A DNA stretch of 64,000 nucleotides, from assembly GCA_018509705.1 (NCBI GenBank), contig GCA_018509705.1_3630.1; one strand, written 5' to 3'. Origin of the DNA: a phage. Shown here one piece after another: positions 41,549 through 58,229 of this stretch. Within the stretch, counting starts at the first letter, position 1; each line of letters opens with the position of its first letter. Position numbers and translations under genes: made by a program. The notes beneath the pieces are model-generated. The model did no database searches. It was given only the letters and a program-made list of their open reading frames with translations, and was not told the DNA's origin.

Positions 41549-43034
41549 CACACAATTAGCTACCCGGCTAAAGTGCTGGGAGCACCTATAACACATCTTT
41601 CAACTAAATTTCCCACCACCACAATCACTTACCTCCCACACATGACTGTTTGCTTGTTTAGTGAGCAGTCATGCCTTGACATTCTTGCCTATCCTGATAA
41701 AATTAAGTTCTTCTCTTTTCTTTTACCGAGTAATTCGGGTTTTCTGTTCTCTTCGGTTTGAAGGGGGTATGGAGATACACCTGAGTGAACAGGGTGAACA
41801 ACCGAACCATTGGCTATGGCATTAGCATGGCGAAGCGGACGGGTGACGAAAGAGGGGCCGGAGGACACCAGTCACTGCCATATGATATATGGGTGATAAC
41901 CTGAAGAATCTGAATAAGTGTTTAAGTACCAGTCAGAGGAAAAGGTGAATGGTAGCTGAAGGGGAGGGGGGTTTCTTGTATCTTTAATTTGTATATTATG
42001 TATACACTTGTAAACCAATTTCATCTGAATCTGTTTACCACACAAAGTGGATAGAGACAAATATTACCTATTAAACTTGAATTATTTATAGAAAATACCA
42101 CAACACCACTTAAGTCTTTGATTTTACACACAAATCCTGCAGATATTCAACCTCCATATTTAACATACTTGTAACATATTCCATACTCTACCTGCCTGAT
42201 CAATTTCCCCAACTACATCCCCCATATTTTCCCTGTCTGTACTACCCCTGCCCCGCCGGGAGTCCCGTCATATCTGGCTTTCCAGCAAATATCACACCCA
42301 CAAATATCATTGCCTGAAGAGGGTTTCATCCCATAATACCTGCCTTGCCTGAAGAGGGTTTCATACGCCACGTAAATTTTTTAATTGACCCCTCCCCGCC
42401 GCCGGAAAGGTTGGCTTTTCTCGCACAGACCTGAAGAGTCAGCCAGAAATATCTGAATAGGCCCAATTCTACCCCGATTTTGACCTGACCTACAGGAGCG
42501 CTGCCCTGTCAGGAGCCGTAGCGACTGGAGTGCTGCCAGGCGGACGAAATGGGAATACTTCTCATTCTTATAACAATTCTCAAATATCGAGGCAGTGAGG
42601 CAAATTAATAGGCCAGGCCGTTCACACAGTGGCACAACATTTGCAACCTATCCTGTGGGGATGAATGAGAATACCTATCATTGTGAGAACCATTATCATT
42701 ACGGGCAATTTAACATAATACCCATTATGCGCACCACTGGCGATACATACAGGGATTGATAACATGGGTTACTGTTTACGCACATAACAATTATATTTCT
42801 TACCATTTGTGTGGGATATAGTTAGCAGCCGATAGATTAGATATTAACCTGCAGACTTCTGACCGTCCAGACGTCTAAACGCCCACACACCAAGGATTAT
42901 ACATACACTCCTGAATGTAAACAGGGCCGCAAAAATGCTACCATACAAGCTTGTAAATTTTTCATGCAGCACTTGACAAAGAGGAGAAAAACTTGTCTGA
43001 CATAATGTGACCTAACTGACACAACATGACACTT

Positions 43035-43121
43035 TTACACACCTATTAGTTTACACACTGGATTGTTTACATTCCTGATTGTTCACATGCTAACCATTTA
43101 CATGATTGACTGTTTACACAC
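43035..43121. repeat. Six phased iteron-like repeats of TTTACA/TGTTTACA at about 16-bp spacing
   Basis: Copies begin near 43035, 43050, 43066, 43082, 43099, 43112. Confidence 0.6.
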
Positions 43122-43130
43122 CGATAATCA

Positions 43131-43394
43131 GCCATGCCATTCGTTTGCATGACAATAATTATACATGACAATAATCGCACTGATTATAATTAGCATGACA
43201 TAATATAAAAGCAGGGCAACTATTAGCAGATCTATAGTTGCCTTGCTTGTCATGTCATGATTAACTAAATACAAGGCAACTATGATCTGATTAATAGTTT
43301 GCAGACAAACTATCACGGGGGTGATGGTTACTGCTTTTATATTATGTCGCGACTCCGTCGCGCCATGCCATTCGTTTGCATAGTTGCCTTATTG
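43131..43394. repeat. Composite dyad region: 20-bp direct repeat GCCATGCCATTCGTTTGCAT (43131-43150, 43362-43381) framing an 18-bp inverted repeat and multiple GCAACTAT sites
   Basis: Inverted arms GACATAATATAAAAGCAG (43197-43214) and CTGCTTTTATATTATGTC (43331-43348); GCAACTAT in both orientations. Confidence 0.7.
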
Positions 43395-43991
43395 TTACAG
43401 ATAAAATAATTGTATTGTTAATTATTTCTTATCTTTCTATTAGTCATCTAATGATTTCAGTTAATATAGTAACGTACAGTAAACATTAGACGACTAAAGA
43501 TTTCTCTGCTTATGGTAACCTAACGTGACAATTCCAGACTGTTTACGAAAAATGTTGACACCTGGGCCGATTTATGTTATGCAGTTTACACGAATAATTA
43601 TTTTATGCAGGTATTGACTATTCCGTTATTCTATGGTTGGAATAAATGCTTAGCAGGCTATAGAATGGCGAGCGTACGTAAATTCTGAGATCTGGCGGCT
43701 ATAGTTATACTCGATTTTTCACGTAGAAAACGCTTTTGTAGTTATGTAAGTGTATGACTTATAAAGATTTTTAGTTGTTGACAAGCTATTGAAGATATGC
43801 ATCAGGTTAAATTTTGTGCAAATGCTGCATTATGTGCAATTTTGGAAGGAAAAACGTGTAAAAATGGCCCTGCTACCACACAATGAAAAATTATGCAATA
43901 GTTATTTTATATGTATGTTTGTACAGTGGGGTTAATTGCTGGCTTGTTGATTATTCCATTTGCCAGGCGGGGCCATTTGTGGTAGGAAAAG

Positions 43992-44022
43992 AGGAGACAA
44001 AAAGAAAGGGGCTTTAAGCCCC
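43992..44022 (-). terminator. Rho-independent terminator for the leftward gene block
   Basis: GGGGCTTTAAGCCCC hairpin followed on the - strand by TTTCTTTTT. Confidence 0.55.
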
Positions 44023-44042
44023 TGACCGTGCACCTTGTTGTA

Positions 44043-44306: not shown

Positions 44307-44367
44307 GATGTTTTCCTCTTTATGTGGTCCTGGTTTAGTGGGCCTTTTGGCCCGTGTCATTATCTTA

Positions 44368-44640
44368 TTACTTATGGCGGCAGAATTCAAGTGTTTTTAA
44401 TTGATAATCTTCCTCAGCCTGGAGTACGACCGCCTCGATCATTTCGTTGGCATTGTTAAAGCCATAACCTTTAGCGAACTCATCCGCGCCACCTTCGTGA
44501 TCATGTTCTGCGTTCATCGCTTCCACAAAATGGAATTCCAAATTGTTGAGGTAGGGGCTTGATGTGCCGTCTTCTTTTTCGATGAGATCCCAAATAGCAT
44601 TAAAACGTGATTCGACTTCTTGATTAATCCAGCTTGACAT
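44368..44640 (-). CDS. Hypothetical protein
   Basis: 90-aa ORF with AGGAGAGAGG RBS. Confidence 0.45.
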   Translation of the reverse strand: MSSWINQEVESRFNAIWDLIEKEDGTSSPYLNNLEFHFVEAMNAEHDHEGGADEFAKGYGFNNANEMIEAVVLQAEEDYQLKTLEFCRHK

Positions 44641-44851
44641 AGTGTTTTCCTCTCTCCTGGTTATTGTGTGGGCACTTTTGCCCCTTCAAGATAAATGTTA
44701 CCCCACCCCATGGCAGATGTCAACGGTTTTTATAGTTCTTATATGACAGGCAGGCCCGGTGATTGTCTCCACCCGTCGCCAGGTGCCTGCCGTGAAACAA
44801 GTATAACAAAAAACAGGACCATTGCAAGCCCTGTTTTGTAGTTTATAAGGA

Positions 44852-45043
44852 TTATATTTTTTCGCCTATGTAGTCCGGTCGGTTTTTCTCTGTCATGCGC
44901 TTGAGCAATTCTTGCATGTTGCTTATGGCTTGCAGTGTATCCCCTTCCAGACTTGAATCAACATAATCAGGATCGTCTATAACCTTTCTATGATTATGAT
45001 AACGCAGTACCGCCAATACCTTTCTAACTTGTTCGATATTCAT
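44852..45043 (-). CDS. Hypothetical protein
   Basis: 63-aa ORF. Confidence 0.35.
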   Translation of the reverse strand: MNIEQVRKVLAVLRYHNHRKVIDDPDYVDSSLEGDTLQAISNMQELLKRMTEKNRPDYIGEKI

Positions 45044-45055
45044 TTTTATCGCTCT

Positions 45056-45190
45056 TTAAAACAAGGTGCCAACCGTTCCCAATAGATCACTGACTACCAG
45101 GACAATACTGATCAGCACATACCTAACCATAAGGGGAAAGAGCGCCAGCGATCCAGCCACAATCCCCAAGGTGATGATTATCTTTCTCAT
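45056..45190 (-). CDS. Small hydrophobic peptide (44 aa)
   Basis: Hand-translated MRKIIITLGIVAGSLALFPLMVRYVLISIVLVVSDLLGTVGTLF; start 2 nt after upstream stop. Confidence 0.35.
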   Translation of the reverse strand: MRKIIITLGIVAGSLALFPLMVRYVLISIVLVVSDLLGTVGTLF

Positions 45191-45192
45191 GG

Positions 45193-45477
45193 TTAACGGT
45201 TTACGTAAGCTTTACCGTTTACGGTGATGGGCAGATCTTCCAGGTCTGGATCTTCCTTAAGGTCGCGAGCAAGCTCACCGCACCGGATACCCTCGAATCC
45301 GTAGTACTCTGTTGTGCCGTCATTAAAAGTTTTAGCGGCAAGGCATAAGCGATAAGTAACCCAGATTTGATTGACGGCATGGATATCCGTTAGATTAACC
45401 TCTTTTGCCAGCTCTTTAGCCATTACAGGCGCATTAAGTCCAACAACCAGGGCAACTACTGCGATCATCTTTTTCAT
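45193..45477 (-). CDS. Secreted/periplasmic protein with signal peptide
   Basis: N-terminal MKKMIAVVALVVGLNAPVMA; AAAGAGG RBS. Confidence 0.5.
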   Translation of the reverse strand: MKKMIAVVALVVGLNAPVMAKELAKEVNLTDIHAVNQIWVTYRLCLAAKTFNDGTTEYYGFEGIRCGELARDLKEDPDLEDLPITVNGKAYVNR

Positions 45478-45568
45478 TGTGTCTAGCCTCTTTCTGCTAC
45501 GTTTAAGGCGGCGGTAACCGCCTGTTTATGATTTATTGGTTAATTTTCAGGTATCGCTATAAATTAAA

Positions 45569-45793
45569 CTATGCTGTACGCTCAACTATAACAACGGTTT
45601 GAGGGATCTCACCTTCCACCACTATCAAGGCCTTTTTCTGCGTGATGGATATCTTTACCCGTTGCAGCGTGGCGGTGAAGTCTTTCATTTCGTCACGTGG
45701 TGTTTTAGTGCAATGCCAGATCTCAGGCTTACCTATTTGCAAGCCGCGTAAAAATTCTGTTTTACCTGTCTTATTCGTGATCATTTGATTCAC
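45569..45793 (-). CDS. Hypothetical protein
   Basis: 74-aa ORF. Confidence 0.4.
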   Translation of the reverse strand: MNQMITNKTGKTEFLRGLQIGKPEIWHCTKTPRDEMKDFTATLQRVKISITQKKALIVVEGEIPQTVVIVERTA

Positions 45794-45794
45794 C

Positions 45795-45899
45795 TTAACC
45801 GATACCGTGGGAAGATAGGATCATGTTAGCCATAGTTGCAACCACTCCAACCGATAATGCCAGGCCAACTACTACAACCGTGAAAATTTTCTCTAACAT
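45795..45899 (-). CDS. Small hydrophobic peptide (34 aa)
   Basis: Internal Met of track ORF with GAGGG RBS; single TM helix. Confidence 0.35.
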   Translation of the reverse strand: MLEKIFTVVVVGLALSVGVVATMANMILSSHGIG

Positions 45900-45982
45900 G
45901 ATTCTACCCTCATTAATGGGCGTTGCCTTATTGCCCCGCCCTACGAAATACAGTCTATCAAGTAATAAACTATTGTCAAGAT

Positions 45983-46120
45983 TTATTTTACTTCCCAAAC
46001 GGAAAATTCACTACCTGGCGGAATCATCTTTTTAATCTTGTTTGCTGCTGCTACCAGATCCACGGCTTGTACTGTAATAATATAACCAATTGTCGAGGCT
46101 GTTGCGTTGAAAGTTTTCAT
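45983..46120 (-). CDS. Small protein (45 aa)
   Basis: Hand-translated MKTFNATASTIGYIITVQAVDLVAAANKIKKMIPPGSEFSVWEVK; GAGGG RBS. Confidence 0.35.
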   Translation of the reverse strand: MKTFNATASTIGYIITVQAVDLVAAANKIKKMIPPGSEFSVWEVK

Positions 46121-46457
46121 TAAATTACCCTCATTAATGGCGGGAAGTATTCCCGCGCTATGTAGTACACTTTACCAGATTGTTGACTGTTGTCAAACTA
46201 TTTTAACGATAATCATCATATGCTTTATTGACCTGGCGAATATAACATTCAAAAGCTAGATCAATAGATTTATATTCACGGATATATTCACCATAGGAAA
46301 CCACATACATTTCTATAGCTTCCTCATATGCGAGGAGAATAGAATCTAAGCCTACGATCTCAGTCTTTGCAATAATAGCCATGATTTTTATCCTCTTTGT
46401 GGTTGGTGGGGCTTGTTGCCCCCTTTGATTTATATTCTACAGTCTTATAAGGTCATG

Positions 46458-46691
46458 TCAACTATTTTCAAAAAATTTTTCTGCTGTAATATTTTTCCCG
46501 GTAGGGTTCGCTACTTTCAAAATTTTATCATGCACTGGACGCCCAAAAGAATAAGCGCCGTACACAGTGCACCAATAATCGCCGTCAGGCTGTACTATTA
46601 CAGCCGCATAGGGTACGCCTTTTTCGTTTTTGCTGACAAAATAGATCACGTTGCCATTAATAGCCTCGGCGCGTTTAATTTGTTCCATCAT
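46458..46691 (-). CDS. Hypothetical protein
   Basis: 77-aa ORF with AGAGAGG RBS preceded by GC hairpin. Confidence 0.45.
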   Translation of the reverse strand: MMEQIKRAEAINGNVIYFVSKNEKGVPYAAVIVQPDGDYWCTVYGAYSFGRPVHDKILKVANPTGKNITAEKFFENS

Positions 46692-46747
46692 GATGATTTG
46701 CCTCTCTTTATTTTCATAATTGGGGGGCCTTTTCGGCCCCGCCAGGT

Positions 46748-47032
46748 TTATTTATTGATAGCGTGCAGCGGGAAAGGTACGCCAGGTTGATAGATAACTT
46801 TTACAACCTCATCAGAGCAAAAGAAATTACAAAATTCACCCTGATAAGCCTCATCCTCTTTTAATTCTTCATCAACATACTGGAAAAAGTAGTCAATGCT
46901 TGGATAATCCTGACCGGGATTATATTCAACCATGGTTAATAACAATTCTTGATCATTCCGTATGATATGCATACCAGCTTTTAAGTATTTGGCTTCCATT
47001 TCTACTACATCGCCAACGGTAACAATAGCCAT
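46748..47032 (-). CDS. Hypothetical protein
   Basis: 94-aa ORF. Confidence 0.45.
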   Translation of the reverse strand: MAIVTVGDVVEMEAKYLKAGMHIIRNDQELLLTMVEYNPGQDYPSIDYFFQYVDEELKEDEAYQGEFCNFFCSDEVVKVIYQPGVPFPLHAINK

Positions 47033-47169
47033 GGTTTTAACTCCTATCTATCCGGTTAATGATTGGAGGCCTCACCGCCCCCCGACACCCTTTATTATCC
47101 ATATTGTAGGACTTGATGCAAGTACTTCTTTAAAAATTTTTTAAGCGCCTTGGGGGCCGCTGTAACGCC

Positions 47170-47200
47170 AAAATAATAAAGGCTATGCAACCGCATAGCC
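47170..47200 (-). terminator. Rho-independent terminator (- strand)
   Basis: GGCTATGCAACCGCATAGCC hairpin followed on - strand by T-rich tract. Confidence 0.5.
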
Positions 47201-47238
47201 TTTATGTGATTATATCGCTGCAGGCCCTGCCAGGGGCC

Positions 47239-47589
47239 TTATTTTGCATTCTTTCCTATATTGCCGCTACGGTACCAGCGTTTACGGTGAAAATGGTAAT
47301 AATCACCATCGGCATTAAACATCAGATGATTTTCAATAACCAGCTTACGAAGGTGGGCCGGATCTTGTTCCATTCTTGCCAGATTCTGGCGGCTGTTACG
47401 TAAGCGGATAAATTCTATATTCAGGCCGTTGATTGCAGCATGGATGTCAAAGTAACCACCTTTGAGACGTTCACGCATGGCGTTAAGCTCAACACAATAT
47501 ACAGATTTCTCACAAATCAAGGTATTAGCCAGGGCGCGGACCTGGGCAAGAGGGTTAAGCTCATTAAGGTAATATAGTTTTACTTTCAT
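47239..47589 (-). CDS. Hypothetical protein
   Basis: 116-aa ORF. Confidence 0.45.
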   Translation of the reverse strand: MKVKLYYLNELNPLAQVRALANTLICEKSVYCVELNAMRERLKGGYFDIHAAINGLNIEFIRLRNSRQNLARMEQDPAHLRKLVIENHLMFNADGDYYHFHRKRWYRSGNIGKNAK

Positions 47590-47606
47590 AAAATCACCTG
47601 CTGAAA

Positions 47607-47927
47607 TTAGTTTGAGAAAACATCGTTCACAATAGCGATCACAATGCCGCCCACCTTGTCACGGTCAACAATGCACAAATCACCATAGATCATGTGGTAG
47701 TCTGGATGATCTTTGACGGAATAGTCGATAAGTGTTTTCTTGTCATCCAGCTTACTAACTTCCATTCTCATAACGATATGAGAATCATCAAAGGCATTAT
47801 TCCGAAAAGTCATAACCTGACCGCCAGGGCACCCGGTGATTTCCACCTCCACGCCGTCTACGATCTGACCATCAAAGAAATAAAGATTATTAGCCTGGAT
47901 AAACATGATCATTACTCCTTTTTGCAC
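47607..47927 (-). CDS. Hypothetical protein
   Basis: 106-aa ORF. Confidence 0.45.
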   Translation of the reverse strand: MQKGVMIMFIQANNLYFFDGQIVDGVEVEITGCPGGQVMTFRNNAFDDSHIVMRMEVSKLDDKKTLIDYSVKDHPDYHMIYGDLCIVDRDKVGGIVIAIVNDVFSN

Positions 47928-47950
47928 TGATTATTTTAACAGGGTTTAAA

Positions 47951-47994
47951 TTTACTTTATTGATGGCCCTGGAGTCAAGGCCATCTAAAAATAA
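47951..47994 (-). promoter_or_regulatory. 44-bp conserved element, copy 1 (palindrome GATGGCC-N10-GGCCATC containing a - strand TTGACT)
   Basis: Near-identical to copies at 51667 and 52288; sits just upstream of a - strand gene. Confidence 0.55.
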
Positions 47995-47997
47995 ATT

Positions 47998-48198
47998 TTA
48001 CAGGCCTACAATCTCTTTAATTCGTTTTACTGCTGCCTCAGCGCCTTGAGGGTAAAAATTATGGTAACCAATCACGCGAGTGATACTAATCGCCGTTTGA
48101 TGATCTTCATAATCACCTTTAAAGATTTCTTGACCGTCAATCAGCACGGCAATTTTTTCTTCTTTTTTGAAGTTAATAACGCGGATATTGTTGCTCAT
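47998..48198 (-). CDS. Hypothetical protein
   Basis: 66-aa ORF with AAGGAGA RBS. Confidence 0.4.
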   Translation of the reverse strand: MSNNIRVINFKKEEKIAVLIDGQEIFKGDYEDHQTAISITRVIGYHNFYPQGAEAAVKRIKEIVGL

Positions 48199-48339
48199 TT
48201 TGTTTCTCCTTTTGGAACTTTGTCTATGCGGTGGGGAGTGTCTCCCCGTTGATTGTTATTATCCATATTCTGGATCGGATTGCAACACTCAGGGAGAAAA
48301 AAATTTGAAAAGTTAGGCCCCCATGATCGGGGGCCGTTC

Positions 48340-48459
48340 TTAGTTACTTACAGCGATAAAGTACATCCCTACGCCTAGCAATATTTCAAGGGCGATAATC
48401 TCAAGCCATACCATAACGCGGCGCACCTTATCGGTGCATGGCTTATCCTTGGTTGTCAT
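48340..48459 (-). CDS. Small hydrophobic peptide (39 aa)
   Basis: Hand-translated MTTKDKPCTDKVRRVMVWLEIIALEILLGVGMYFIAVSN; GGGGAG RBS. Confidence 0.35.
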   Translation of the reverse strand: MTTKDKPCTDKVRRVMVWLEIIALEILLGVGMYFIAVSN

Positions 48460-48625
48460 CGTCTCCCCCTTTCCTTCTGGTAGTAGTGACGCGATCTACA
48501 ATGGCCCCCAGGAGTCCTATCACGACACACACCACAAGAAAAATTATCTCCGCTGTTGTTCGATCCATTGTTATAAAATTCCTCAAGATCAGGCCTGAAA
48601 ATAAAGCGTTCGTTATTGAATCCAT
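48443..48625 (-). CDS. Small membrane protein
   Basis: 60-aa ORF with TM segment IIFLVVCVVIGLLGAIV. Confidence 0.35.
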   Translation of the reverse strand: MDSITNALFSGLILRNFITMDRTTAEIIFLVVCVVIGLLGAIVDRVTTTRRKGGDDDNQG

Positions 48626-48678
48626 CCCGCCAGGCGGCTGGCTTCAAATCTTCACTAAAGGGGTTAATTAACGTGGCA

Positions 48679-49083
48679 TTATTTAAACGGCTGGTCCACA
48701 TATTTTCTATTCCTCTCAAATAGGCGATCCGCCTCAGTTAAACAAATCTCATGGGCGTGATCTCTGGTTTTAGCTTCATCGAAAACCTGTTGTGCAAGGC
48801 TGCAACGTAGGGAGACTGGAAGATCACTATAATAGGCGTTGACAAACGTTTGAGCGTCGTACAGGTCTGAAAATACTTTACCCTTTCTATTATTCCCCTT
48901 GTCAACAATTGCAAGGATAACCAATACAATAGTTGCAACCACCCCCAGGAAAATAGATATAATAAACCATAAAAAGGCGGATCTTCCCATCTTGCCAGCG
49001 ATCCAGGCGTTAAACAAGGCAACCAATACAGCCAAAATAATAAATTCCATTCTATGTACCTCTTTTACAGTTCTGATTAACAA
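48679..49083 (-). CDS. Membrane protein (two TM helices); start uncertain
   Basis: Hydrophobic segments FIILAVLVALFNAWIA and FLWFIISIFLGVVATIVLVILAIV. Confidence 0.45.
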   Translation of the reverse strand: MLIRTVKEVHRMEFIILAVLVALFNAWIAGKMGRSAFLWFIISIFLGVVATIVLVILAIVDKGNNRKGKVFSDLYDAQTFVNAYYSDLPVSLRCSLAQQVFDEAKTRDHAHEICLTEADRLFERNRKYVDQPFK

Positions 49084-49114
49084 TAAGGCGGCAAATATGC
49101 CGCCTGCTACCTGA

Positions 49115-49495
49115 TTAAAAATTATCGCCGTAAATCTTTCCGCTTTCTACCCATACCACCACGCGAGGCATACTATCCCACACGTCTTGTTTTAGATTGA
49201 GCGCGTGCAATTCTTCGGTGGTGCTCATACCGGGCACGGGCTGATTGTATACTGCAAAACGACCGCCTGCATAATCATAGGCCAGGGTTAAATCACACTG
49301 GATCATCTTTTTGATCATGGCATTAAGCATGGCGTTAGCCGCATATTGATCACGTTTTAAAGGCAACTCTTTGATTAGTTTGCGATAGTTTTCGATATGG
49401 TCGCACACTGTTTCACGAGGAAGATCTTTCATATCTTCACGGAATGTAACCAGGTTAAACATAACGGTGTCAATAGCCTTGGTAGTGTTTTTCAT
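49115..49495 (-). CDS. Hypothetical protein
   Basis: 126-aa ORF with AAGAGGA RBS. Confidence 0.45.
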   Translation of the reverse strand: MKNTTKAIDTVMFNLVTFREDMKDLPRETVCDHIENYRKLIKELPLKRDQYAANAMLNAMIKKMIQCDLTLAYDYAGGRFAVYNQPVPGMSTTEELHALNLKQDVWDSMPRVVVWVESGKIYGDNF

Positions 49496-49585
49496 GATGT
49501 TATCCTCTTTGTTTTGTGTTGGGGCAAACGTCTTGCCACCTTGAGTTTTAATATAGCAGGTTTTTAGGTTATTGCAACACTTTAT

Positions 49586-49963
49586 TTATGAAAAAGTCAT
49601 CTCACCATATTCATCGACATCAAACCGCCAATCATTGGCCTCGATAAGGCCGATCAGGTTTTCTGCGGTGAACTGTTCTAGATAGGCCTCCTCCAGGTCT
49701 ACGTAAACCTTGCGGGATAGCTCCCGTACCGTCTCGGTGATCAGTTCTTCCAGGTCTTCCACTTTGTTTTCTTGTTTGGCGGTCAGATCTAGCCAAGTGG
49801 TATCAATGTACCCGCTTACAGTGTTTTCATGGCTGTAATGGCTGTACTTGTCGCGTTCAACACTGGCTGATAACTCGCCATCGTGCATTGTGCCGAACAA
49901 GTGACGAATTGATCGGAACTTGGTCAGGGCCTTTACTTTACGCAAAAATTTTTCTAAATCCAC
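49586..49963 (-). CDS. Hypothetical protein
   Basis: 125-aa acidic ORF. Confidence 0.45.
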   Translation of the reverse strand: MDLEKFLRKVKALTKFRSIRHLFGTMHDGELSASVERDKYSHYSHENTVSGYIDTTWLDLTAKQENKVEDLEELITETVRELSRKVYVDLEEAYLEQFTAENLIGLIEANDWRFDVDEYGEMTFS

Positions 49964-50020
49964 GTTTTCAGCACTGATTGACGCGCCGTCACCCTGGCAC
50001 CAAAAGCCTGACCAATGTAC

Positions 50021-50209
50021 TTAGGTATCTTCAAGGCCATACTCTGGAAAAACATATTCTTTATAGTATTCAATTACACTTTCTGCAAAAAAGTTATCCC
50101 CGCTGTGTTCTTCTCTTTCGCGGACCATTTCAACGGCTTTTTCTTTTTGTTCGTCGGTCAGCACGTCGAAAGATAAATTGTAACCTGCGGTAATGTTAAC
50201 GGTGGTCAT
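50021..50209 (-). CDS. Hypothetical protein
   Basis: 62-aa ORF downstream of promoter and leader hairpin. Confidence 0.45.
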   Translation of the reverse strand: MTTVNITAGYNLSFDVLTDEQKEKAVEMVREREEHSGDNFFAESVIEYYKEYVFPEYGLEDT

Positions 50210-50266
50210 GATATTTTCTCCTATTTTCTTTGTTAGTGGCGGGAAGTTTTCCCGCCTGTGTGTTTA

Positions 50267-50294
50267 AGTATACTTATTGAGGCTTACTTGTCAA
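50267..50294 (-). promoter_or_regulatory. Sigma70-type promoter on - strand (TTGACA-16-TATACT)
   Basis: Read directly on reverse complement. Confidence 0.55.
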
Positions 50295-50544
50295 CACTAT
50301 TTTTTAAATTATTGTGGCGCAAAATGTTTAAAATCTCCTCAACGTCATCAACACGGCGGCAATTTTTAAACGCTACCAATTGCCCCATGATTTTAATCAC
50401 TGGGCGGCCTTGCCAGTGCCCCTGAAGAAAGCGCGCCCTGACTTTATCGGTGGAACTATCACGCCACCAAATAGCCTTGTTGTTGCAGTAGTAAAAATTA
50501 TTCAGGATAACATCAACTTTATCAAAATTTTTTAATTTACGCAT
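50284..50544 (-). CDS. Hypothetical protein
   Basis: 86-aa ORF. Confidence 0.4.
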   Translation of the reverse strand: MRKLKNFDKVDVILNNFYYCNNKAIWWRDSSTDKVRARFLQGHWQGRPVIKIMGQLVAFKNCRRVDDVEEILNILRHNNLKNSVDK

Positions 50545-50762
50545 GGCGTTTACTCCTTTCTCTCTTTGATGTGGTTAGTATAGCTAACCTGTTGACGATG
50601 TCAATGATATTTTTAACGCCATGAAACGGCCCTGGGCGATGTTTTCAGGTTAAAGGGGGCGATTGCATAGGTGGGGGCCTTTTTGGCGCTTACAGGGCCA
50701 ACCAGGGGCGCTATTCGTAGGATAGAAATAAAAAGCCCCGCACAATGGCGGGGCGTTGGTTG

Positions 50763-50984
50763 TTATTTGTCTTTATGGCGGTATCGTTCTGCCTGTCGTT
50801 CACGTTCCAAAAGTAGGCCGGGCAATTTACGATCATAATGATTACGCCAGATCTTCCCAAACCTTTTTGGCTTATTCAGTTTATTGTTACGCTGGCGGCG
50901 TTCTGGCAGCTCTTCGGAATCATGAGGGCGCTTTACAATTTTCTCGAAATTAATTTTCATATATTCCCCCCTTGCTAACTTCAA
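50763..50984 (-). CDS. Small highly basic protein
   Basis: 73 aa rich in R/K. Confidence 0.4.
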   Translation of the reverse strand: MKLARGEYMKINFEKIVKRPHDSEELPERRQRNNKLNKPKRFGKIWRNHYDRKLPGLLLERERQAERYRHKDK

Positions 50985-51303
50985 TATTGGCCTGAATAGC
51001 CCGGATACGGCGCTTTATAACTTCCTGATCTGTGTGGTCGTATCCCCAAAAGTCTACAATTTTTGCGCCCCCCGCCTCCAGGCGGTATAGTGTTTCCTGC
51101 ATTTTGTAAGCCGGGATCGGTCGCGGTGTTACTTGGTCACCTTCTTTATTTTTATACTTTATAATATAATCTTCGTTATCGTTGAATGCCCAAAATGGAT
51201 ATTCTGCAAGGGCGGTACTTCCTCTTTCCTTTTTATCCTGGATCTTATTTACAATTAAAGCCGTAGCAATAGCGCCAATAATAAAACTTGCCCCGCTGAT
51301 CAT
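50950..51303 (-). CDS. Hypothetical protein with N-terminal TM segment
   Basis: 117-aa ORF; hydrophobic N-terminus. Confidence 0.45.
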   Translation of the reverse strand: MISGASFIIGAIATALIVNKIQDKKERGSTALAEYPFWAFNDNEDYIIKYKNKEGDQVTPRPIPAYKMQETLYRLEAGGAKIVDFWGYDHTDQEVIKRRIRAIQANIEVSKGGIYEN

Positions 51304-51377
51304 GTACTTTCTCCTTTCATGGTGTTAATAAATTATCTTTATAGATGGCCCTGCAACCAGGACCACCGAAAAAATAA

Positions 51378-51623
51378 CTATTTCACAATGCCTACAAAAC
51401 AGATCCCGCCTTCACCTATATAAGCAATATCGGTCACTTTATAACTTGTCAAGATCTGCTTATTTAGTTCATTAATAAAATCGGTCATTGCGTTGGTGTA
51501 GTTGTCTTCCGTGTCTAAGGCATAATCCCAGGTGTACACCTTTTTACGTCCGAAGCCTTTTACCATGATACGGGCGCTTTTGGTGTTGGTAGGGGCATAA
51601 TATTTGGTGATTAGTGCTGCCAT
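51378..51623 (-). CDS. Hypothetical protein
   Basis: 81-aa ORF downstream of element copy 2. Confidence 0.45.
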   Translation of the reverse strand: MAALITKYYAPTNTKSARIMVKGFGRKKVYTWDYALDTEDNYTNAMTDFINELNKQILTSYKVTDIAYIGEGGICFVGIVK

Positions 51624-51666
51624 GGTTTTAACTCCTATGCATTAGTTCAGTGTTAACAGTATAAAG

Positions 51667-51710
51667 TTTACTTTATTGATGGCCCTGGTGTCAAGGCCAT
51701 CTAAAAATAA
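51667..51710 (-). promoter_or_regulatory. 44-bp conserved element, copy 2
   Basis: TTTACTTTATTGATGGCCCTGGTGTCAAGGCCATCTAAAAATAA. Confidence 0.55.
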
Positions 51711-51712
51711 GC

Positions 51713-52054
51713 TTACTCGTTTTCTTCCAGCTCCGCAAGCTCTTCTTTTGCTTCTTCTAACTCTGTCTGTAATTCCTGGTATTCTTCATCGTCCTCAATA
51801 TCCAGGCTGTCGATGTAGTCGCTAAATCCGCAGCGGTAAGCGATAGGATCTAGCTCCTTGAGGATACGCGACGGAAGAAAAGAAATGTTTCCGATCATAA
51901 TTTCGCCGTAGATCTCGTCTAACCATTCATCATAGTTTTCGTCGTACTTGTCCTCGTCGATTTCAAAGTTATCGATCTTATTCTCAAGGTCTGCGATCTG
52001 TTTTTTCAGTTCAGCGATCTGCATAGCTTTTTCTGAGGCGGTCATAGTAGTCAT
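51713..52054 (-). CDS. Highly acidic coiled-coil protein
   Basis: 113 aa, D/E-rich with heptad-like spacing. Confidence 0.45.
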   Translation of the reverse strand: MTTMTASEKAMQIAELKKQIADLENKIDNFEIDEDKYDENYDEWLDEIYGEIMIGNISFLPSRILKELDPIAYRCGFSDYIDSLDIEDDEEYQELQTELEEAKEELAELEENE

Positions 52055-52105
52055 GGTGTTTTTCTCCTTTTGTGTGTTCTGGGAAGTTTTCCCGTTTATG
52101 TGCTT

Positions 52106-52133
52106 ATTATATCGATTTAAGTTAGCTTGTCAA
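52106..52133 (-). promoter_or_regulatory. Sigma70-type promoter on - strand (TTGACA-16-TATAAT)
   Basis: Read directly on reverse complement. Confidence 0.55.
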
Positions 52134-52253
52134 TTAAAAGTTTAAGAAAAATTTTGCGACACCGTTGGCGCTACCCATCAACATTTGCGCCAGGATGTAC
52201 CCAATGATGCAAACGATGATGGTTACCTTTGTGTGCTGGCGTGTAGTGCTCAT
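52134..52253 (-). CDS. Small hydrophobic peptide (39 aa)
   Basis: Hand-translated MSTTRQHTKVTIIVCIIGYILAQMLMGSANGVAKFFLNF; AAAGGAGG RBS. Confidence 0.4.
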   Translation of the reverse strand: MSTTRQHTKVTIIVCIIGYILAQMLMGSANGVAKFFLNF

Positions 52254-52287
52254 CTTTAAGCCTCCTTTTCCGCTCAACTGTGGTTAG

Positions 52288-52331
52288 TTTACTTTATTGA
52301 TGGCCCTGGTGTCAAGGCCATCTAAAAATAA
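52288..52331 (-). promoter_or_regulatory. 44-bp conserved element, copy 3
   Basis: Identical core to copy 2. Confidence 0.55.
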
Positions 52332-52333
52332 AC

Positions 52334-52729
52334 TCAATAAGTTTTTAGTACTTTCCCGTCCAATCTGTCAAGCTGGATCTCGATAGCTGCAGAAAACCTA
52401 TTGTAAACCACATCGCCCAGGGAGTCCAGCCAATCTATGACGTTATATACCTGCTCTTTATTCTTGCAAGTCCGGATCCGTTTCATTACGTAAGACGGAT
52501 CAATATTAGCGCTCTCGTTGTTGTGGTCCTGCGCCTGGCCTGCTGCGCTAGTTATAGATTTTACAACCACCTGAAAGGGCTTTAAGGTGCCTTTTGCGTT
52601 CATCTCACGCGCTTTTGCGGCGCGGTTGTTATATGTTACACAACGGCGGCAAATGTTGACCAAATGCATATCAATAATTTTTTCATCGTTTGCCAGTTCG
52701 TTCATGATGCGGCGTACGTTCTTGTTCAT
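52334..52729 (-). CDS. Hypothetical protein
   Basis: 131-aa ORF. Confidence 0.45.
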   Translation of the reverse strand: MNKNVRRIMNELANDEKIIDMHLVNICRRCVTYNNRAAKAREMNAKGTLKPFQVVVKSITSAAGQAQDHNNESANIDPSYVMKRIRTCKNKEQVYNVIDWLDSLGDVVYNRFSAAIEIQLDRLDGKVLKTY

Positions 52730-52811
52730 GATCTTTTTCCTTTGTGCTGGCGGGAAACATTCCCGCCTTTTGTGTCTAGTTTACTTAAATTTTGCAGCGT
52801 GTCAATGATTT

Positions 52812-53866: not shown

Positions 53867-54293
53867 ATACCTATCGAAAGGACGGCAGGCACCGGTGACG
53901 GGGGAGACAACCACCGGGGATGGGCGCTGCATAAAATGAGAACGGTTATCATTATCATTTAAAAATTTATGCAAAAAATCCTTGCCTTCTTTGTCCTGTG
54001 TGATACTATAATAACAAGCCGGGGCAACAGGGGCCGGGAGACAATCACCGGGCCTGCCCGTTATTCTGCAAACGAGAATGATTATCATTCAAAATTCTAA
54101 ATGAGAACTCCTCGCATTTAATAAATTTAATTAGCATGCTAATTACCCTCCGTAACAATTTCCTATAAAACAGTATCCCATAAAATATTCCCATATAGAA
54201 ATTTTAAAAATCCATTTCTGAAAACGAAAAATCGATTTCGTCCCCAAAAATTTCAGGTCGAGAGCTGGAACGATTTCCAGAAAATCCGATTCA

Positions 54294-54389
54294 GAAAACG
54301 AAAAACAGATCGAGTACTTGGAAATTTATCGAGAAAAATTTTCAGAAAATTCAATCTTTGAAACGAAAAACAGATCGAGTACTTGGAAA
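54294..54389. repeat. 30-bp direct repeat GAAAACGAAAAACAGATCGAGTACTTGGAAA (two near-identical copies 65 bp apart; degenerate third copy near 54219)
   Basis: Read directly in 1-kb non-coding island. Confidence 0.75.
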
Positions 54390-54694
54390 GCTGTACCGCA
54401 ACTTCAAGATAGTGGCTGGATTATTGCCATAAAAGGCCAAGGGCGAGTGGGAAAGTTCTGGTAGAAGGGTGTGAGCATACGCGGAAAATCTGGAATGGTA
54501 GCCCGGAATATGACGCAAACGATAGGATGAGTGGTTCAGCTCATCGTGTCTACCCTGAAAAATCCATTTTAGTTTTCGATCCGTTTTCTGATTTTCTAAG
54601 AATTTTAAAATATCTGGCCTGGTGAAATATCAAAAAGGAGGAAATCCATTTTAGAAATCCCCCTTATACTTGATATGCCAGAAATTTTCAAGTA

Positions 54695-55810: not shown

Positions 55811-55817
55811 ATCATAC

Positions 55818-56009
55818 TCACTTGTTGTTAATAAGTTCTAAAACTTTCTGTCTTACTTTGTCAAGGTCTGTTGATTCAAAAACTGTGCGATATTCCCAAC
55901 TTTGCCCATAGGAGTGACTGCAATCCCCGTAGCACCATTGCTCAATTTGATAGTATTCAAGGAACGGGTGCTGTCTAACTATGATACCATCCCGGTTAAA
56001 AATTACCAT
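55818..56009 (-). CDS. Hypothetical protein
   Basis: 63-aa ORF. Confidence 0.35.
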   Translation of the reverse strand: MVIFNRDGIIVRQHPFLEYYQIEQWCYGDCSHSYGQSWEYRTVFESTDLDKVRQKVLELINNK

Positions 56010-56072
56010 AATACATCGCTCTCTGTTAGTTTATGCGTATATTATACACTGCAGTTTTCAGATGTCAACCTC

Positions 56073-56267
56073 TTACAGATTGCTCCAGTACAATCGGCAT
56101 TTACATTTTGGGCAATGAGGTTCTTTTATGTAATAACCGTCAGTCTTTGGAACACTTTTTGGTGCAGTTTTAATATTGTACCTGGTAAAACATCGGAAGC
56201 AGGTTACCTCTCCGATCTGTTGATCGTTAATCCACTCGCCAGAGTAAAGCTCTTTCTTGTTTCTCAT
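56073..56267 (-). CDS. Small zinc-ribbon-like protein
   Basis: CFRC...CPKCKC cysteine pairs; start reset to internal Met. Confidence 0.4.
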   Translation of the reverse strand: MRNKKELYSGEWINDQQIGEVTCFRCFTRYNIKTAPKSVPKTDGYYIKEPHCPKCKCRLYWSNL

Positions 56268-58168: not shown

Positions 58169-58229
58169 TTTTCAGATCTCCTTATACAAAAAGCCCCACC
58201 CTTTCGGGCAGGGCTATGTTAGTTATGTG

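What the first reader, a model, noticed from the sequence alone, without database searches (positions are those of the whole stretch)
46140..52767. Recurrent GC hairpin GGCGGGAA-N3-TTCCCGCC between - strand promoters and start codons
Near-identical stem-loops occur at 46140-46156, 50238-50256, 52081-52094 and 52749-52767, each placed between a - strand promoter and the next RBS. Other - strand leaders carry different GC hairpins in the same position. A shared hairpin in several 5' UTRs suggests a common RNA-level control such as a processing site, a stability element or a translational operator for one repressor protein.
Basis: seen in the sequence. Interest (0 to 1): 0.45.

Follow-up and report, generated by a model that had tools for sequence, protein, structure and literature searches.

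The report
Promoter-proximal hairpins in phage early-gene cassettes
The repeated GC hairpin is real: it is one of about eleven stem-loops placed at the very start of early mRNAs in an rV5-like coliphage, most likely generic mRNA-stabilising structures inside reusable promoter cassettes, not a binding site for one repressor and not terminators.

Summary
The window is an rV5-like coliphage (Vequintavirus). GGGAA-N3-TTCCC occurs 4 times against 0.08 expected, each time 10-12 nt after the -10 hexamer of a minus-strand sigma70 promoter and 19-28 nt before the start codon.

These four belong to a set of 11 leaders (44.3-52.8 kb) with one layout: promoter, 8-12 nt, G-first GC hairpin of 5-8 bp, an A/C-rich unstructured spacer with the ribosome binding site, then ATG. 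Six of 12 strong promoters in this block carry such a hairpin against 0.34 expected (P=4e-7).

- **Not terminators:** no hairpin has a U-tract on the coding strand.
- **Not ribosome-site operators:** none overlaps the Shine-Dalgarno sequence.
- **Structure is what is kept:** loops are the most variable part, loops flip between relatives, and different genes and genera use different stems at the same position.

The cassettes resemble PeSLs (promoter-early stem-loops) of T4-like phages. They head ORFan genes and lie at several gene gain/loss junctions.

The most likely role is a sequence-independent 5'-terminal stem-loop that protects early mRNAs; this is inferred, since no transcript ends have been mapped.

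One point is unexplained: the CGGGA...TCCCG core recurs in the same position in other Vequintavirinae genera. Verdict: new member of a known kind, modest interest.

The parts
52749..52767 (-). Focal hairpin GGCGGGAAUGUUUCCCGCC in the leader of the 131-aa gene 52729..52334
   Evidence: Exact motif match. 8-bp stem, -14.6 kcal/mol, z -3.4. Starts 10 nt after the -10 hexamer and ends 19 nt before the ATG.
52778..52805 (-). Sigma70-type promoter TTGACA-16-TAAACT of that cassette
   Evidence: Predicted as P194 in the rV5 paper, Table S4.
50238..50256 (-). Focal hairpin GGCGGGAAAACUUCCCGCC in the leader of gene 50209
   Evidence: Exact motif. -14.6 kcal/mol, z -4.5. 10 nt after -10, 28 nt before the ATG.
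50267..50294 (-). Promoter TTGACA-16-TATACT
   Evidence: P185 in rV5 Table S4.
52081..52093 (-). Degenerate focal hairpin GGGAAAACUUCCC (5 bp) in the leader of gene 52054
   Evidence: Core motif. -5.5 kcal/mol, z -1.7. 12 nt after -10. A 36%-identical homologue of this gene on IMG/VR contig L065 carries the full GGCGGGAATAGTTCCCGCC stem.
52106..52133 (-). Promoter TTGACA-16-TATAAT
   Evidence: 12 of 12 consensus match. P192 in rV5 Table S4.
46140..46156 (-). Focal hairpin GCGGGAAUACUUCCCGC in the leader of the 45-aa gene 46120
   Evidence: One mismatch to the full motif. 7-bp stem. 12 nt after -10, 19 nt before the ATG.
46169..46196 (-). Promoter TTGACA-16-TAAAGT. Its -35 region is the left junction of a module-replacement hot spot.
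49521..49540 (-). Same-position hairpin, GGUGGCAAGACGUUUGCCCC (leader of gene 49495; promoter 49550-49577)
   Evidence: Relatives have GGGGGCAA..TTGCCCCC, an inverted-loop form and a G.U-containing form.
48233..48247 (-). Same-position hairpin GGGGAGACACUCCCC (gene 48198; promoter 48258-48285)
   Evidence: Four different stem/loop solutions among relatives.
47065..47082 (-). Same-position hairpin GGGGGCGGUGAGGCCUCC (gene 47032; promoter 47094-47121)
   Evidence: Compensatory G-C to A-U change among relatives.
46408..46422 (-). Same-position hairpin GGGGCAACAAGCCCC (gene 46382; promoter 46434-46461)
   Evidence: Annotated as 'terminator' in the EdH4 record.
45918..45941 (-). Same-position hairpin GGGCGGGGCAAUAAGGCAACGCCC (gene 45899; promoter 45952-45979)
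   Evidence: -16.8 kcal/mol, z -3.8. 10 nt after -10.
44670..44683 (-). Same-position hairpin GGGCAAAAGUGCCC (gene 44640; promoter 44695-44723)
   Evidence: Replaced by the 49495-type hairpin in phage C5, locus L126.
44340..44353 (-). Same-position hairpin GGGCCAAAAGGCCC (gene 44306; promoter 44362-44390)
   Evidence: Conserved in the divergent phage A7_1 as GGGCCGAAAGGCCC.
52299..52322 (-). Second cassette type: hairpin GATGGCC-TTGACAC-CAGGGCCATC with the -35 hexamer inside it. Further copies at 51678-51701 and 47962-47985; degenerate copy at 51344-51367.
   Evidence: Recombination between the first two copies deletes two genes in locus L121.
46724..46740 (-). GC hairpin without a recognisable promoter, between genes 47032 and 46691
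   Evidence: In locus L086 the orthologous gene is headed by a full promoter plus the GGGCGGGAATGTTTCCCGCCT cassette.
50735..50754 (-). Canonical intrinsic terminator (GCCCCGCC..GCGGGGC followed by UUUUUAUUU), for contrast. Others at 58192-58215, 48316-48335 and 44810-44837.

Best explanation
The four near-identical hairpins are one subfamily of at least eleven promoter-proximal GC stem-loops. They sit in composite early-gene regulatory cassettes of an rV5-like phage. Each cassette reads: A-rich upstream tract, sigma70 promoter (mostly 16-nt spacer), 8-12 nt A-rich initial transcribed region, a 5-8 bp hairpin with a G-run 5' arm and a C-run 3' arm, an 18-34 nt A/C-rich unpaired spacer holding the Shine-Dalgarno sequence, then ATG of a small ORFan gene.

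Shown: the layout, its enrichment, the fixed distance to the promoter, retention of a hairpin across relatives and across genera with different stems, and the absence of U-tracts.

Inferred: transcription starts about 7 nt after the -10 hexamer, so the hairpin would occupy roughly +3/+6 to +20/+28 of each early mRNA. There it would act largely independently of sequence, as a 5'-terminal stem-loop that hinders RppH and the 5'-end sensor of RNase E. It would also give a defined, insulated 5' end whichever gene the cassette is joined to.

As a by-product, the repeated sub-motifs (upstream tract with -35, hairpin, post-hairpin SD segment) serve as patches of homology where genes are gained, lost or swapped, as described for PeSLs of T4-like phages.
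For: - **Motif and position:**. Distance from -10 is 8-12 nt (mean about 10), while distance to the ATG is 18-34 nt.
- **Enrichment:** 6 of 12 strong promoters against 0.34 expected, P=4e-7, only in the 44.0-53.3 kb block. Genome-wide in the near-identical phage C12, 7 of 11 strict hits lie in the corresponding 8.3 kb.
- **Folding:** all 11 leaders fold as one 5'-proximal hairpin with the SD region unpaired.
- **Retention:** 55 of 57 distinct orthologous variants in 13 genomes keep a hairpin of -4 kcal/mol or better, through different stem and loop solutions.
- **Variability:** loops 68% variable columns, stems 31%, synonymous sites 39%. There is one G-C to A-U compensatory pair and loop inversions with the stem kept.
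- **Other genera:** the same layout with unrelated stems occurs in the divergent Vequintavirinae phage A7_1 and in Seunavirus 4MG and LNA4, including a G-C to C-G flip.
- **No termination signal:** the 8 nt after the 11 hairpins contain 13 U in 88 positions, my count from the sequences listed. Real U-tract terminators lie nearby.
- **Literature:** a 5' hairpin stabilises mRNA and impedes RppH; RNase E is stimulated by an accessible 5' monophosphate (review PMC3997798).
- **Cassette junctions of indels:**. PeSL concept: PMC2839356 and PMC4122927.
Against: - No transcript 5' ends are mapped for any Vequintavirus; none was found in the searched literature. The number of unpaired 5' nucleotides (predicted 1-6) is therefore unknown and may exceed what a protective 5' hairpin tolerates.
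- Stem polymorphisms among close relatives show no clear bias toward sense-strand G.U over A.C (5 against 4 by my count from the alignments). Sense folds are more stable than antisense in only 33 against 23 variants. RNA-level selection on the mRNA strand is therefore not demonstrated.
- Stems are only moderately conserved, and one relative (Gotham) has lost a hairpin through a 4-nt deletion.
- Promoters in 53-64 kb lack hairpins, so the element is not needed by every early mRNA.
- The CGGGA...TCCCG core recurs across genera, including on a 36%-identical homologue of gene 52054. The four window copies share the stem but not their flanks. This hints at a sequence-specific constraint that a purely generic stabiliser does not predict.
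Confidence: 0.5

Rival explanations
1. PeSL-style attenuator or barrier. The hairpins act on read-through transcripts coming from upstream genes. They would be weak U-less terminators or attenuators, or 3'-exonuclease barriers after processing, and so insulate each ORFan cassette transcriptionally.
For: A PeSL stem-loop cloned in front of lacZ reduced expression like rrnB T1 (PMC2839356). The second cassette type here has its hairpin around the -35 hexamer, and one hairpin (46724-46740) has no promoter at all; both can only exist in RNA made from upstream promoters. The type-2 hairpins contain sense-strand U.G pairs, by my reading of the sequences. Depositors of EdH4 and Murica annotated some of these hairpins as terminators.
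Against: The 11 type-1 hairpins lie downstream of their own promoter, so they would equally attenuate the gene they head. None has a U-tract. A terminator or barrier role does not explain the fixed 8-12 nt distance from the -10 hexamer. The phage uses canonical U-tract terminators where termination is evidently wanted.
Confidence: 0.2
2. Sequence-specific operator. The CGGGA-loop-TCCCG subfamily (four copies here) would be bound by one phage or host protein, either as a 19-bp DNA palindrome centred near +13 (a roadblock repressor for early shut-off) or as an RNA hairpin. This would define a small regulon.
For: The stems are identical while the flanks are no more alike than those of any two cassettes. 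The same core sits in the same promoter-proximal place in Seunavirus 4MG and LNA4, in contigs L065 and L086, and in A7_1. This includes a 36%-identical homologue of gene 52054. Conserved half-sites with a variable 3-bp centre is the usual pattern for dimeric DNA binders (general knowledge).
Against: Seven other leaders carry unrelated stems at the same position. Stem substitutions in the two perfect copies are as frequent among relatives as in other hairpins (6 independent variants). In Seunavirus, pair 2 flips G-C to C-G and the stem length changes. The hairpin does not overlap the SD or AUG. No DNA- or RNA-binding domain was found in the neighbouring proteins that were scanned. Hairpin swapping between leaders is documented and could by itself spread one stem.
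Confidence: 0.12
3. DNA-level palindrome with no RNA role. The inverted repeats would matter as hairpin or cruciform structures or as recombination hot spots that drive cassette shuffling. Alternatively they would act as terminators for antisense (plus-strand) transcription, because the A-rich initial transcribed region reads as a T-rich tail on the other strand.
For: Loop inversions with intact stems in relatives (TGT/ACA at 52749-52767; GACGT/ACGTC at 49521-49540) are the signature of intrastrand pairing or arm-to-arm exchange in DNA. Several indel junctions lie in or next to cassettes. Five of the hairpins pass a loose terminator scan on the plus strand, for example GGCGGGAAACATTCCCGCC followed by TTTTGTGT. 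The PeSL authors speculated about a protein targeting GGGG..CCCC.
Against: Neither recombination nor antisense termination needs a fixed 8-12 nt distance from the -10 hexamer. There are no plus-strand genes or convincing plus-strand promoters in this block. Many junctions are in the -35 or the SD segment rather than in the hairpin, and some indels have no cassette at all.
Confidence: 0.1
4. No function of its own. The hairpins would be hitch-hiking remnants of duplicated cassettes or of former terminators captured downstream of promoters.
For: Stems are only moderately conserved. One relative lost a hairpin, and one window copy (52081-52093) is degenerate.
Against: Position-specific enrichment at P=4e-7. 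A hairpin is retained in 55 of 57 variants through different solutions. The same layout with unrelated stems occurs in three other Vequintavirinae lineages.
Confidence: 0.05

Closest known systems
PeSLs (promoter-early stem-loops) of T4-like phages RB49/phi1, T4/PST and KVP40/nt-1 (Arbiol et al. 2010, PMC2839356; Comeau et al. 2014, PMC4122927)
   Same: Composite intergenic cassettes made of a strong sigma70-type early promoter with an AT-rich upstream tract, a stable stem-loop rich in a G-run followed by a C-run, and a Shine-Dalgarno sequence. They are repeated many times in an ORFan-rich plastic region and are found at the junctions of gene insertions, deletions and replacements between close relatives. 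The window's second cassette type (hairpin around the -35) matches a described PeSL subclass. A subclass with the stem-loop downstream of the -10 is also described.
   Different: The phage subfamily differs (Vequintavirinae, not Straboviridae). There is no sequence homology to Krischvirus PeSLs: an ORFan shared with Krischvirus at 84.5% nt identity is homologous only over the ORF, not the flanks. The dominant hairpin position here is stereotyped (8-12 nt after -10, so inside the transcript), whereas PeSL stem-loops mostly lie between or over the promoter hexamers. No U-tract is present, and terminator activity and mini-circles were not tested.
5'-terminal stabilising stem-loops of E. coli mRNAs (ompA and papA 5' UTR hairpins; synthetic 5' hairpins on bla), which act against RppH and 5'-end-dependent RNase E
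   Same: A short stable hairpin within a few nucleotides of the predicted mRNA 5' end, followed by an unstructured ribosome binding region. The stem sequence appears interchangeable.
   Different: The 5' ends are predicted, not mapped. Here the element is multiplied across a phage gene array and embedded in a recombining cassette. No half-life data exist.
Rho-independent (intrinsic) terminators, as annotated on some of these hairpins in GenBank records EdH4 and Murica
   Same: GC-rich 5-8 bp stem with a short loop in an intergenic region.
   Different: No U-tract on the coding strand, and located after the promoter of the next gene rather than before it. Only the antisense strand shows a T-rich tail.
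Phage mRNA operators and processing sites (T4 RegA/gp32/gp43 operators, MS2 coat-protein hairpin, T7 RNase III sites)
   Same: A recurrent RNA hairpin in the leaders of several phage genes.
   Different: It does not overlap the SD or AUG. The loop is not conserved. The stems are far too short for RNase III. No candidate binding protein was identified.

Membership tests
PeSL (promoter-early stem-loop cassette) | Strong sigma70-like early promoter with an AT-rich upstream tract | tested here: met
   TTGACA-16/17-TAnnnT with 9-12 of 12 matches and an A-rich upstream tract. The same promoters were predicted in the rV5 paper, Table S4. Activity was not measured.
PeSL (promoter-early stem-loop cassette) | Adjacent stable stem-loop, typically a G-run followed by a C-run | tested here: met
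   11 type-1 and 4 type-2 hairpins, all G-first, between -5.5 and -16.8 kcal/mol.
PeSL (promoter-early stem-loop cassette) | Many copies in the intergenic spaces of an ORFan-rich hyperplastic region | tested here: met
   15 cassettes in 44.3-52.8 kb. All downstream proteins that were scanned have unknown function. Gene content differs among 12 close relatives.
PeSL (promoter-early stem-loop cassette) | Recombination between cassettes causes gene indels and replacements | tested here: met
   L121 deletion 52286..51713 between two type-2 copies. L121 deletion 46126..45919 within GCC(C)ATTAATGAGGGTA. Module replacement after TTGACAACA. Insertions at the -35 hexamer (L120) and at the post-hairpin SD segment (rV5 ORF166).. 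Other indels have no cassette at their junctions.
PeSL (promoter-early stem-loop cassette) | The stem-loop is an effective transcription terminator or attenuator | tested here: inconclusive
   No U-tract after any type-1 or type-2 hairpin, which argues against canonical termination. A reporter assay is needed.
PeSL (promoter-early stem-loop cassette) | Formation of cassette mini-circles during infection | not testable with these tools
   Requires inverse PCR on infected cells.
PeSL (promoter-early stem-loop cassette) | Sequence relatedness to the T4-like PeSLs, or a T4-like host genome | tested here: not met
   The phage is a Vequintavirus. BLAST of 43-64 kb against a Krischvirus PeSL region finds only the shared ORF and one 25-nt match.
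5'-terminal stabilising stem-loop (ompA/papA type) | Stem-loop within a few unpaired nucleotides of the mRNA 5' end | tested here: inconclusive
   The hairpin starts 8-12 nt after the -10 hexamer. With a start about 7 nt after -10 (general knowledge) that leaves about 1-6 unpaired nt. No mapped 5' ends are available.
5'-terminal stabilising stem-loop (ompA/papA type) | The effect depends on structure, not on stem sequence | tested here: met
   At least 8 unrelated stems at the same position in this phage, further ones in A7_1 and Seunavirus, and hypervariable loops. This shows the structure is conserved; it does not show that the structure has an effect.
5'-terminal stabilising stem-loop (ompA/papA type) | Prolongs mRNA half-life in an RppH- or RNase E-dependent way | not testable with these tools
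   Needs rifampicin-chase experiments in wild-type and mutant hosts.
Intrinsic terminator | U-tract immediately 3' of the stem on the transcribed strand | tested here: not met
   Tails are AGCACAAA, ACTAACAA, AGAACACA, CATTAATG and so on. The tool's terminator scan flags them only on the plus strand.
Intrinsic terminator | Lies after the stop codon of a gene and before the next promoter | tested here: not met
   All 11 lie downstream of the next gene's -10 hexamer.
Translational operator hairpin (RegA/MS2-like) | Overlaps or sequesters the SD or start codon, with a conserved loop recognised by the protein | tested here: not met
   The hairpin ends 18-34 nt before the ATG and the SD is unpaired in all folds. 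The loop is the most variable class of columns and is sometimes inverted.
RNase III processing site | About two helical turns (roughly 20 bp) of double-stranded RNA | tested here: not met
   Stems are 5-8 bp.
Any Rfam family | Match at the gathering score | tested here: not met
   No hits in the whole window.

The most novel reading that the evidence does not exclude
The CGGGA-loop-TCCCG hairpin would be more than a generic 5' stem-loop: a conserved, sequence-specific recognition element of Vequintavirinae early leaders. It is kept from Vequintavirus to Seunavirus, including on a gene whose protein has diverged to 36% identity. A phage or host factor would read it and so set a small regulon of immediate-early genes apart. 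One possibility is selective shielding of these mRNAs while the phage's Srd-like protein (rV5 gp11, as suggested in PMC3606486) drives RNase E against host mRNA. Another is coordinated early shut-off.
Probability: 0.12. Interest if true: 0.6.

Novelty: new member of a known kind. Interest (0 to 1): 0.33.

Why it matters
It corrects a recurring annotation habit. Some GenBank records of rV5-like phages label these hairpins as terminators, although they sit inside the 5' leaders of the next gene.

It extends the PeSL idea of self-contained promoter plus stem-loop cassettes that travel with ORFan genes. The idea moves from T4-like phages to an unrelated group of therapeutic and typing coliphages, with a stereotyped 5'-leader position that suggests a concrete RNA-level role.

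For phage engineering, these are compact natural expression cassettes: strong promoter, 5' hairpin, open ribosome binding site. If the hairpins do protect phage early mRNAs from 5'-end-dependent decay, that would give a simple route by which a phage's messages outlast host messages. The element is not a new kind of system, so the interest is modest.

Tried and rejected
- **Rfam scan of the whole window:** nothing.
- **IMG/VR scan for the exact 19-mer:** 115 loci. Most are unrelated single hairpins with T-rich tails, that is ordinary terminators. Only L057, L058, L065 and L086 share the promoter-proximal layout.
- **The search for related loci with the 131-aa protein:** only 2 loci, so relatives were taken from the GenBank phage collection instead.
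- **Strand test by G.U against A.C substitutions and by sense against antisense folding energies:** no significant signal (5 against 4; 33 against 23).
- **RNAalifold on orthologues:** only one double compensatory pair. The relatives are too close (90-99% identity) for strong covariation.
- **MAFFT alignment of the cross-genus CGGGA subfamily:** it puts the Seunavirus stems out of register, so the count of structure pairs was not run on it.
- **Whole-cassette duplication as the reason for the shared stem:** rejected, because the flanks of the four copies are no more similar than those of any two cassettes.
- **Homology of the cassettes to Krischvirus PeSLs:** rejected.
- **Pfam and PHROG scans of downstream and neighbouring proteins for a DNA- or RNA-binding candidate:** all of unknown function, apart from one small phage zinc-binding-domain protein.
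- **Literature search for transcript maps of rV5-like phages:** none found.
- **RNase III site and translational operator readings:** rejected on stem length and on position relative to the SD.

Full report
**What the window is.** Region 45.9-53.0 kb is 99.7% identical to the GenBank record 'Campylobacter phage C12' (an unverified record classified as Vequintavirus). It is 99.1% identical to Escherichia phage EdH4 and 91-96% identical to rV5 and many other rV5-like coliphages. From about 44 kb to the right end, the minus strand carries a dense array of small genes annotated only as hypothetical proteins in related records. The ten leader-associated proteins I scanned have no Pfam domain above threshold and fall in PHROG families of unknown function. 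Window 42539-44023 aligns to the first 1.5 kb of the Gotham record, whose first 459 bp are annotated as the terminal repeat. The gene array therefore begins about 1.3 kb from a physical genome end.

**Check of the observation.** GGCGGGAANNNTTCCCGCC with up to 3 mismatches occurs at 46139-46157 (1 mismatch), 50238-50256 and 52749-52767. Shuffles give 0.11 expected, and none of 100 reaches 3. The core GGGAANNNTTCCC occurs four times, adding 52081-52093, against 0.08 expected. The fourth copy is degenerate, with a 5-bp stem. Read on the minus strand, each copy follows a sigma70-type promoter (TTGACA-16-TAAACT, TATACT, TATAAT, TAAAGT). Each starts 10-12 nt after the -10 hexamer and ends 19-28 nt before the ATG of the next gene. 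The rV5 genome paper predicted these same promoters (P194, P185, P192). It did not mention the hairpins, and they are not in its terminator list.

**The wider pattern.** A catalogue of every minus-strand intergenic gap shows eleven leaders between 44.3 and 52.8 kb with one architecture. The order is: A-rich upstream tract, promoter, 8-12 nt, a hairpin with a G-run 5' arm and a C-run 3' arm (5-8 bp, loop 3-6), an 18-34 nt A/C-rich spacer containing the Shine-Dalgarno sequence, then ATG.
- The stems differ: GGCGGGAA, GGGGGC, GGGGAG, GGUGGCAA, GGGGGC..GCCUCC, GGGCG, GGGCA, GGGCC.
- Six of 12 strong promoters in 44.0-53.3 kb have a hairpin of at least 5 bp starting 8-12 nt after the -10 hexamer, against 0.34 expected (P=4e-7).
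- None of 10 strong promoters in 53.3-64 kb does, and 1 of 29 on the plus strand does.
- Genome-wide in C12, 7 of 11 strict hits fall in the corresponding 8.3-kb block.
- Folded from the predicted start, every leader forms a single 5'-proximal hairpin and leaves the ribosome binding region open. Eight of the 11 have z-scores of -1.7 or lower; the others are -1.41, -1.29 and +0.07.

A second repeated cassette, GATGGCC-TTGACAC-CAGGGCCATC, has the -35 hexamer inside the hairpin. It has three exact or near-exact copies and one degenerate copy.

**What the hairpins are not.**
- **Not intrinsic terminators for the coding strand.** They lie downstream of the promoter of the gene they precede. The 8 nt after them (AGCACAAA, ACTAACAA, AGAACACA, CATTAATG and so on) are U-poor. 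Genuine hairpin-plus-U-tract terminators occur nearby at 50735-50754, 58192-58215, 48316-48335 and 44810-44837. Some GenBank records (EdH4, Murica) nevertheless label them terminators.
- **Not RNase III sites.** The stems are only 5-8 bp.
- **Not SD-occluding translational operators.** They end 18-34 nt before the ATG, and the SD is unpaired in all folds.
- **No Rfam family matches**.

**Comparative evidence.** I compared nine leaders across the window and 12 Vequintavirus loci.
- 55 of 57 distinct variants keep a hairpin of -4 kcal/mol or better, often by a different solution. Examples are GGGGAG-ACA-CUCCCC against GGGGA-GCUAA-UCCCC, and GGGGG/CCCCC against GGAGG/CCUCC, the latter being a double compensatory change.
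- Loops are the most variable class of columns (68%), above synonymous sites (39%). Stems stand at 31%, and the -35 hexamer at 6%.
- Twice the loop is exactly inverted while the stem is unchanged: TGT/ACA at 52749-52767 and GACGT/ACGTC at 49521-49540. This argues against loop-specific recognition and shows intrastrand pairing or arm exchange at the DNA level.
- The test for sense-strand G.U against A.C is uninformative (5 against 4; sense more stable in 33 against 23 variants). One relative has lost a hairpin. RNA-level selection is therefore plausible but not demonstrated by these close relatives.
- Stronger support comes from distant relatives. The unclassified Vequintavirinae phage A7_1 is about 50% identical in a shared protein. 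It has the same promoter, 8-10 nt, then hairpin layout with other stems, such as GGGGCGACAAGCGCCCC and GGGCGGCAAUGUUGCCGCUC. Seunavirus 4MG and LNA4 have it too.

**Relation to PeSLs.** The closest described entity is the PeSL, a promoter-early stem-loop cassette of T4-like phages. It combines strong sigma70-type promoters with G-run/C-run stem-loops. It is repeated in ORFan-rich plastic regions and mediates gene shuffling (PMC2839356, PMC4122927). The same behaviour is seen here.
- In locus L121, recombination between two type-2 cassettes removes genes 52253 and 52054.
- Recombination within the 16-nt post-hairpin segment GCC(C)ATTAATGAGGGTA removes gene 46120.
- The slot after TTGACAACA at 46196 holds three different modules in different phages.
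- The 411-bp two-gene module 46204-45794 is 93.7% identical to A7_1, whereas the only other aligned segment is 72% identical.
- Insertions in L120 and rV5 have junctions at a -35 hexamer and at the post-hairpin SD segment.
- Phage C5 (L126) carries the 49495-type hairpin in the leader of gene 44640.
- Other indels have no cassette at their ends, so the cassettes are frequent junctions but not the only ones.

The cassettes are not homologous to Krischvirus PeSLs. The 63-aa ORFan at 56009..55818 is shared with RB49-like phages (85-87% aa identity in tblastn; 84.5% nt over 200 bp). The similarity stops at the ORF boundaries, and the Krischvirus flanks carry PeSLs with the stem-loop between or over the promoter hexamers. 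No paper in the searched library describes PeSL-like cassettes in rV5-like phages.

**Most likely mechanism.** The one feature that discriminates between the candidate roles is the fixed distance to the promoter: 8-12 nt after -10, against 18-34 nt to the ATG. A terminator, a 3' barrier or a recombination site needs no such spacing. A 5'-terminal RNA structure or a promoter-proximal DNA operator does. The diversity of stems at that position, within this phage and across genera, speaks for structure rather than for a single binding site.

I therefore favour a sequence-independent 5'-terminal stem-loop on each early mRNA. Such hairpins impede RppH and 5'-end-dependent RNase E attack in E. coli (review PMC3997798; the primary work by Emory, Bouvet and Belasco 1992 is cited from that review's reference list). 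I put this at about 0.5. The transcription start is inferred from the promoter, not mapped, and the predicted 1-6 unpaired nucleotides are borderline for protection. The rivals are a PeSL-type attenuator or barrier (0.2), a sequence-specific operator for the CGGGA subfamily (0.12), a DNA-level palindrome or antisense terminator (0.1), and no function (0.05).

**What remains unexplained.** Outside the hairpin, the four GGGAA-N3-TTCCC cassettes are no more alike than any two cassettes (0.64/0.59 against 0.60/0.60 identity). Recent whole-cassette duplication therefore does not explain the shared stem.

The same core also sits in the same place in other lineages:
- Seunavirus 4MG: GGCGGGAATAGTTCCCGCC, and GCCGGGACGGTTCCCGGC with a G-C to C-G flip.
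- LNA4: three copies, two of them with a sense-strand G.U pair.
- L086: upstream of the orthologue of gene 46691, which in the window has a different hairpin.
- L065: upstream of a 36%-identical homologue of gene 52054.

Either the hairpin spreads between leaders by conversion, which is documented once, or the core has a sequence-specific partner. In IMG/VR at large the exact 19-mer is mostly an ordinary terminator, with a T-rich tail in 107 of 232 strand instances.

**Verdict.** The finding is real and statistically solid. The single-repressor operator idea is not supported, and the terminator alternative is unlikely on sequence grounds. The element is a new member of a known kind: PeSL-like promoter/stem-loop cassettes carrying 5'-leader hairpins. 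Interest is modest, at 0.33.

Noticed in passing
window 52299-52322, 51678-51701, 47962-47985 (degenerate copy 51344-51367), minus strand: A second repeated regulatory cassette of about 60 nt (TTATTTTTAGATGGCCTTGACACCAGGGCCATCAATAAAGTAAACT). Its hairpin encloses the -35 hexamer and contains a sense-strand U.G pair. No U-tract follows. Murica annotates two 45-nt terminators, apparently on these copies (positions not mapped here).
   Followed up: partly
window 50023 (minus-strand gene 50209..49586): A single G-to-T difference from EdH4 turns Glu63 (GAA) into a TAA stop. The 207-aa protein of EdH4 and rV5 (ORF185, PHROG 5162) is therefore split in the window, into a 62-aa ORF plus a downstream remainder.
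   Followed up: yes
window 55814-56013, minus strand: The 63-aa ORFan is 84.5% identical in DNA (85-87% in protein) to genes of RB49-like Krischvirus phages, a different family. The similarity ends at the ORF boundaries. This looks like a recent transfer of a bare ORF between phage families.
   Followed up: partly
window 45794-46204: A two-gene module with both of its promoter-hairpin cassettes is 93.7% identical to the divergent Vequintavirinae phage A7_1, whereas the only other aligned segment is 72% identical. The left junction is at the upstream tract and -35 of the cassette.
   Followed up: yes
L120 and L122 at the orthologue of 52749-52767; L123 at the orthologue of 49521-49540: The hairpin loops are exact reverse complements of the window's loops (TGT/ACA; GACGT/ACGTC) with unchanged stems. 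These are small inversions mediated by the inverted repeat.
   Followed up: partly
window 54194-54389, inside the 557-nt gene-free gap 54138-54694: Three direct repeats of about 57 nt, spaced 65-74 nt apart (61-82% identical), plus a 16-nt motif AAATCCATTTCTGAAA present three times. This may be an iteron-like or regulatory region. The rV5 paper shows a 'non-coding' box on its map.
   Followed up: no
window 42539-42997: Aligns (94%) to positions 1-459 of the Gotham record, which are annotated there as the terminal repeat region. The window therefore spans what is a physical genome end in that record, between the convergent plus- and minus-strand gene blocks.
   Followed up: partly
GenBank MG0656xx records (loci L123-L127, L133-L135): About 20 unannotated, 'UNVERIFIED' records named Campylobacter phage (host given as C. 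jejuni) are Vequintavirus genomes 90-99.7% identical to coliphages. The host label is probably wrong.
   Followed up: no
window 46748-47032 and 44852-45043; loci L125 and L127: Phages C9 and C7 lack 1.9 kb (window 46871..44969). The cause is in-frame recombination between two paralogous genes, which fuses them (junction TATGTTGAT).
   Followed up: partly
window 58230-58808, 56073-56279 and 47239-47589, minus strand: Three whole genes are present or absent among close relatives. They are a 192-aa protein with no Pfam hit, a 68-aa protein with a phage zinc-binding domain (PF23903), and a 116-aa protein with no hit. Their junctions are at stop codons or terminators rather than at cassettes.
   Followed up: partly
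L126 (phage C5), leader of the orthologue of gene 44640: The usual hairpin GGGGCAAAAGTGCCC is replaced by GGGGCAAGACGTTTGCCCC, the hairpin of the 49495 leader. This is an apparent conversion between non-adjacent cassettes.
   Followed up: no
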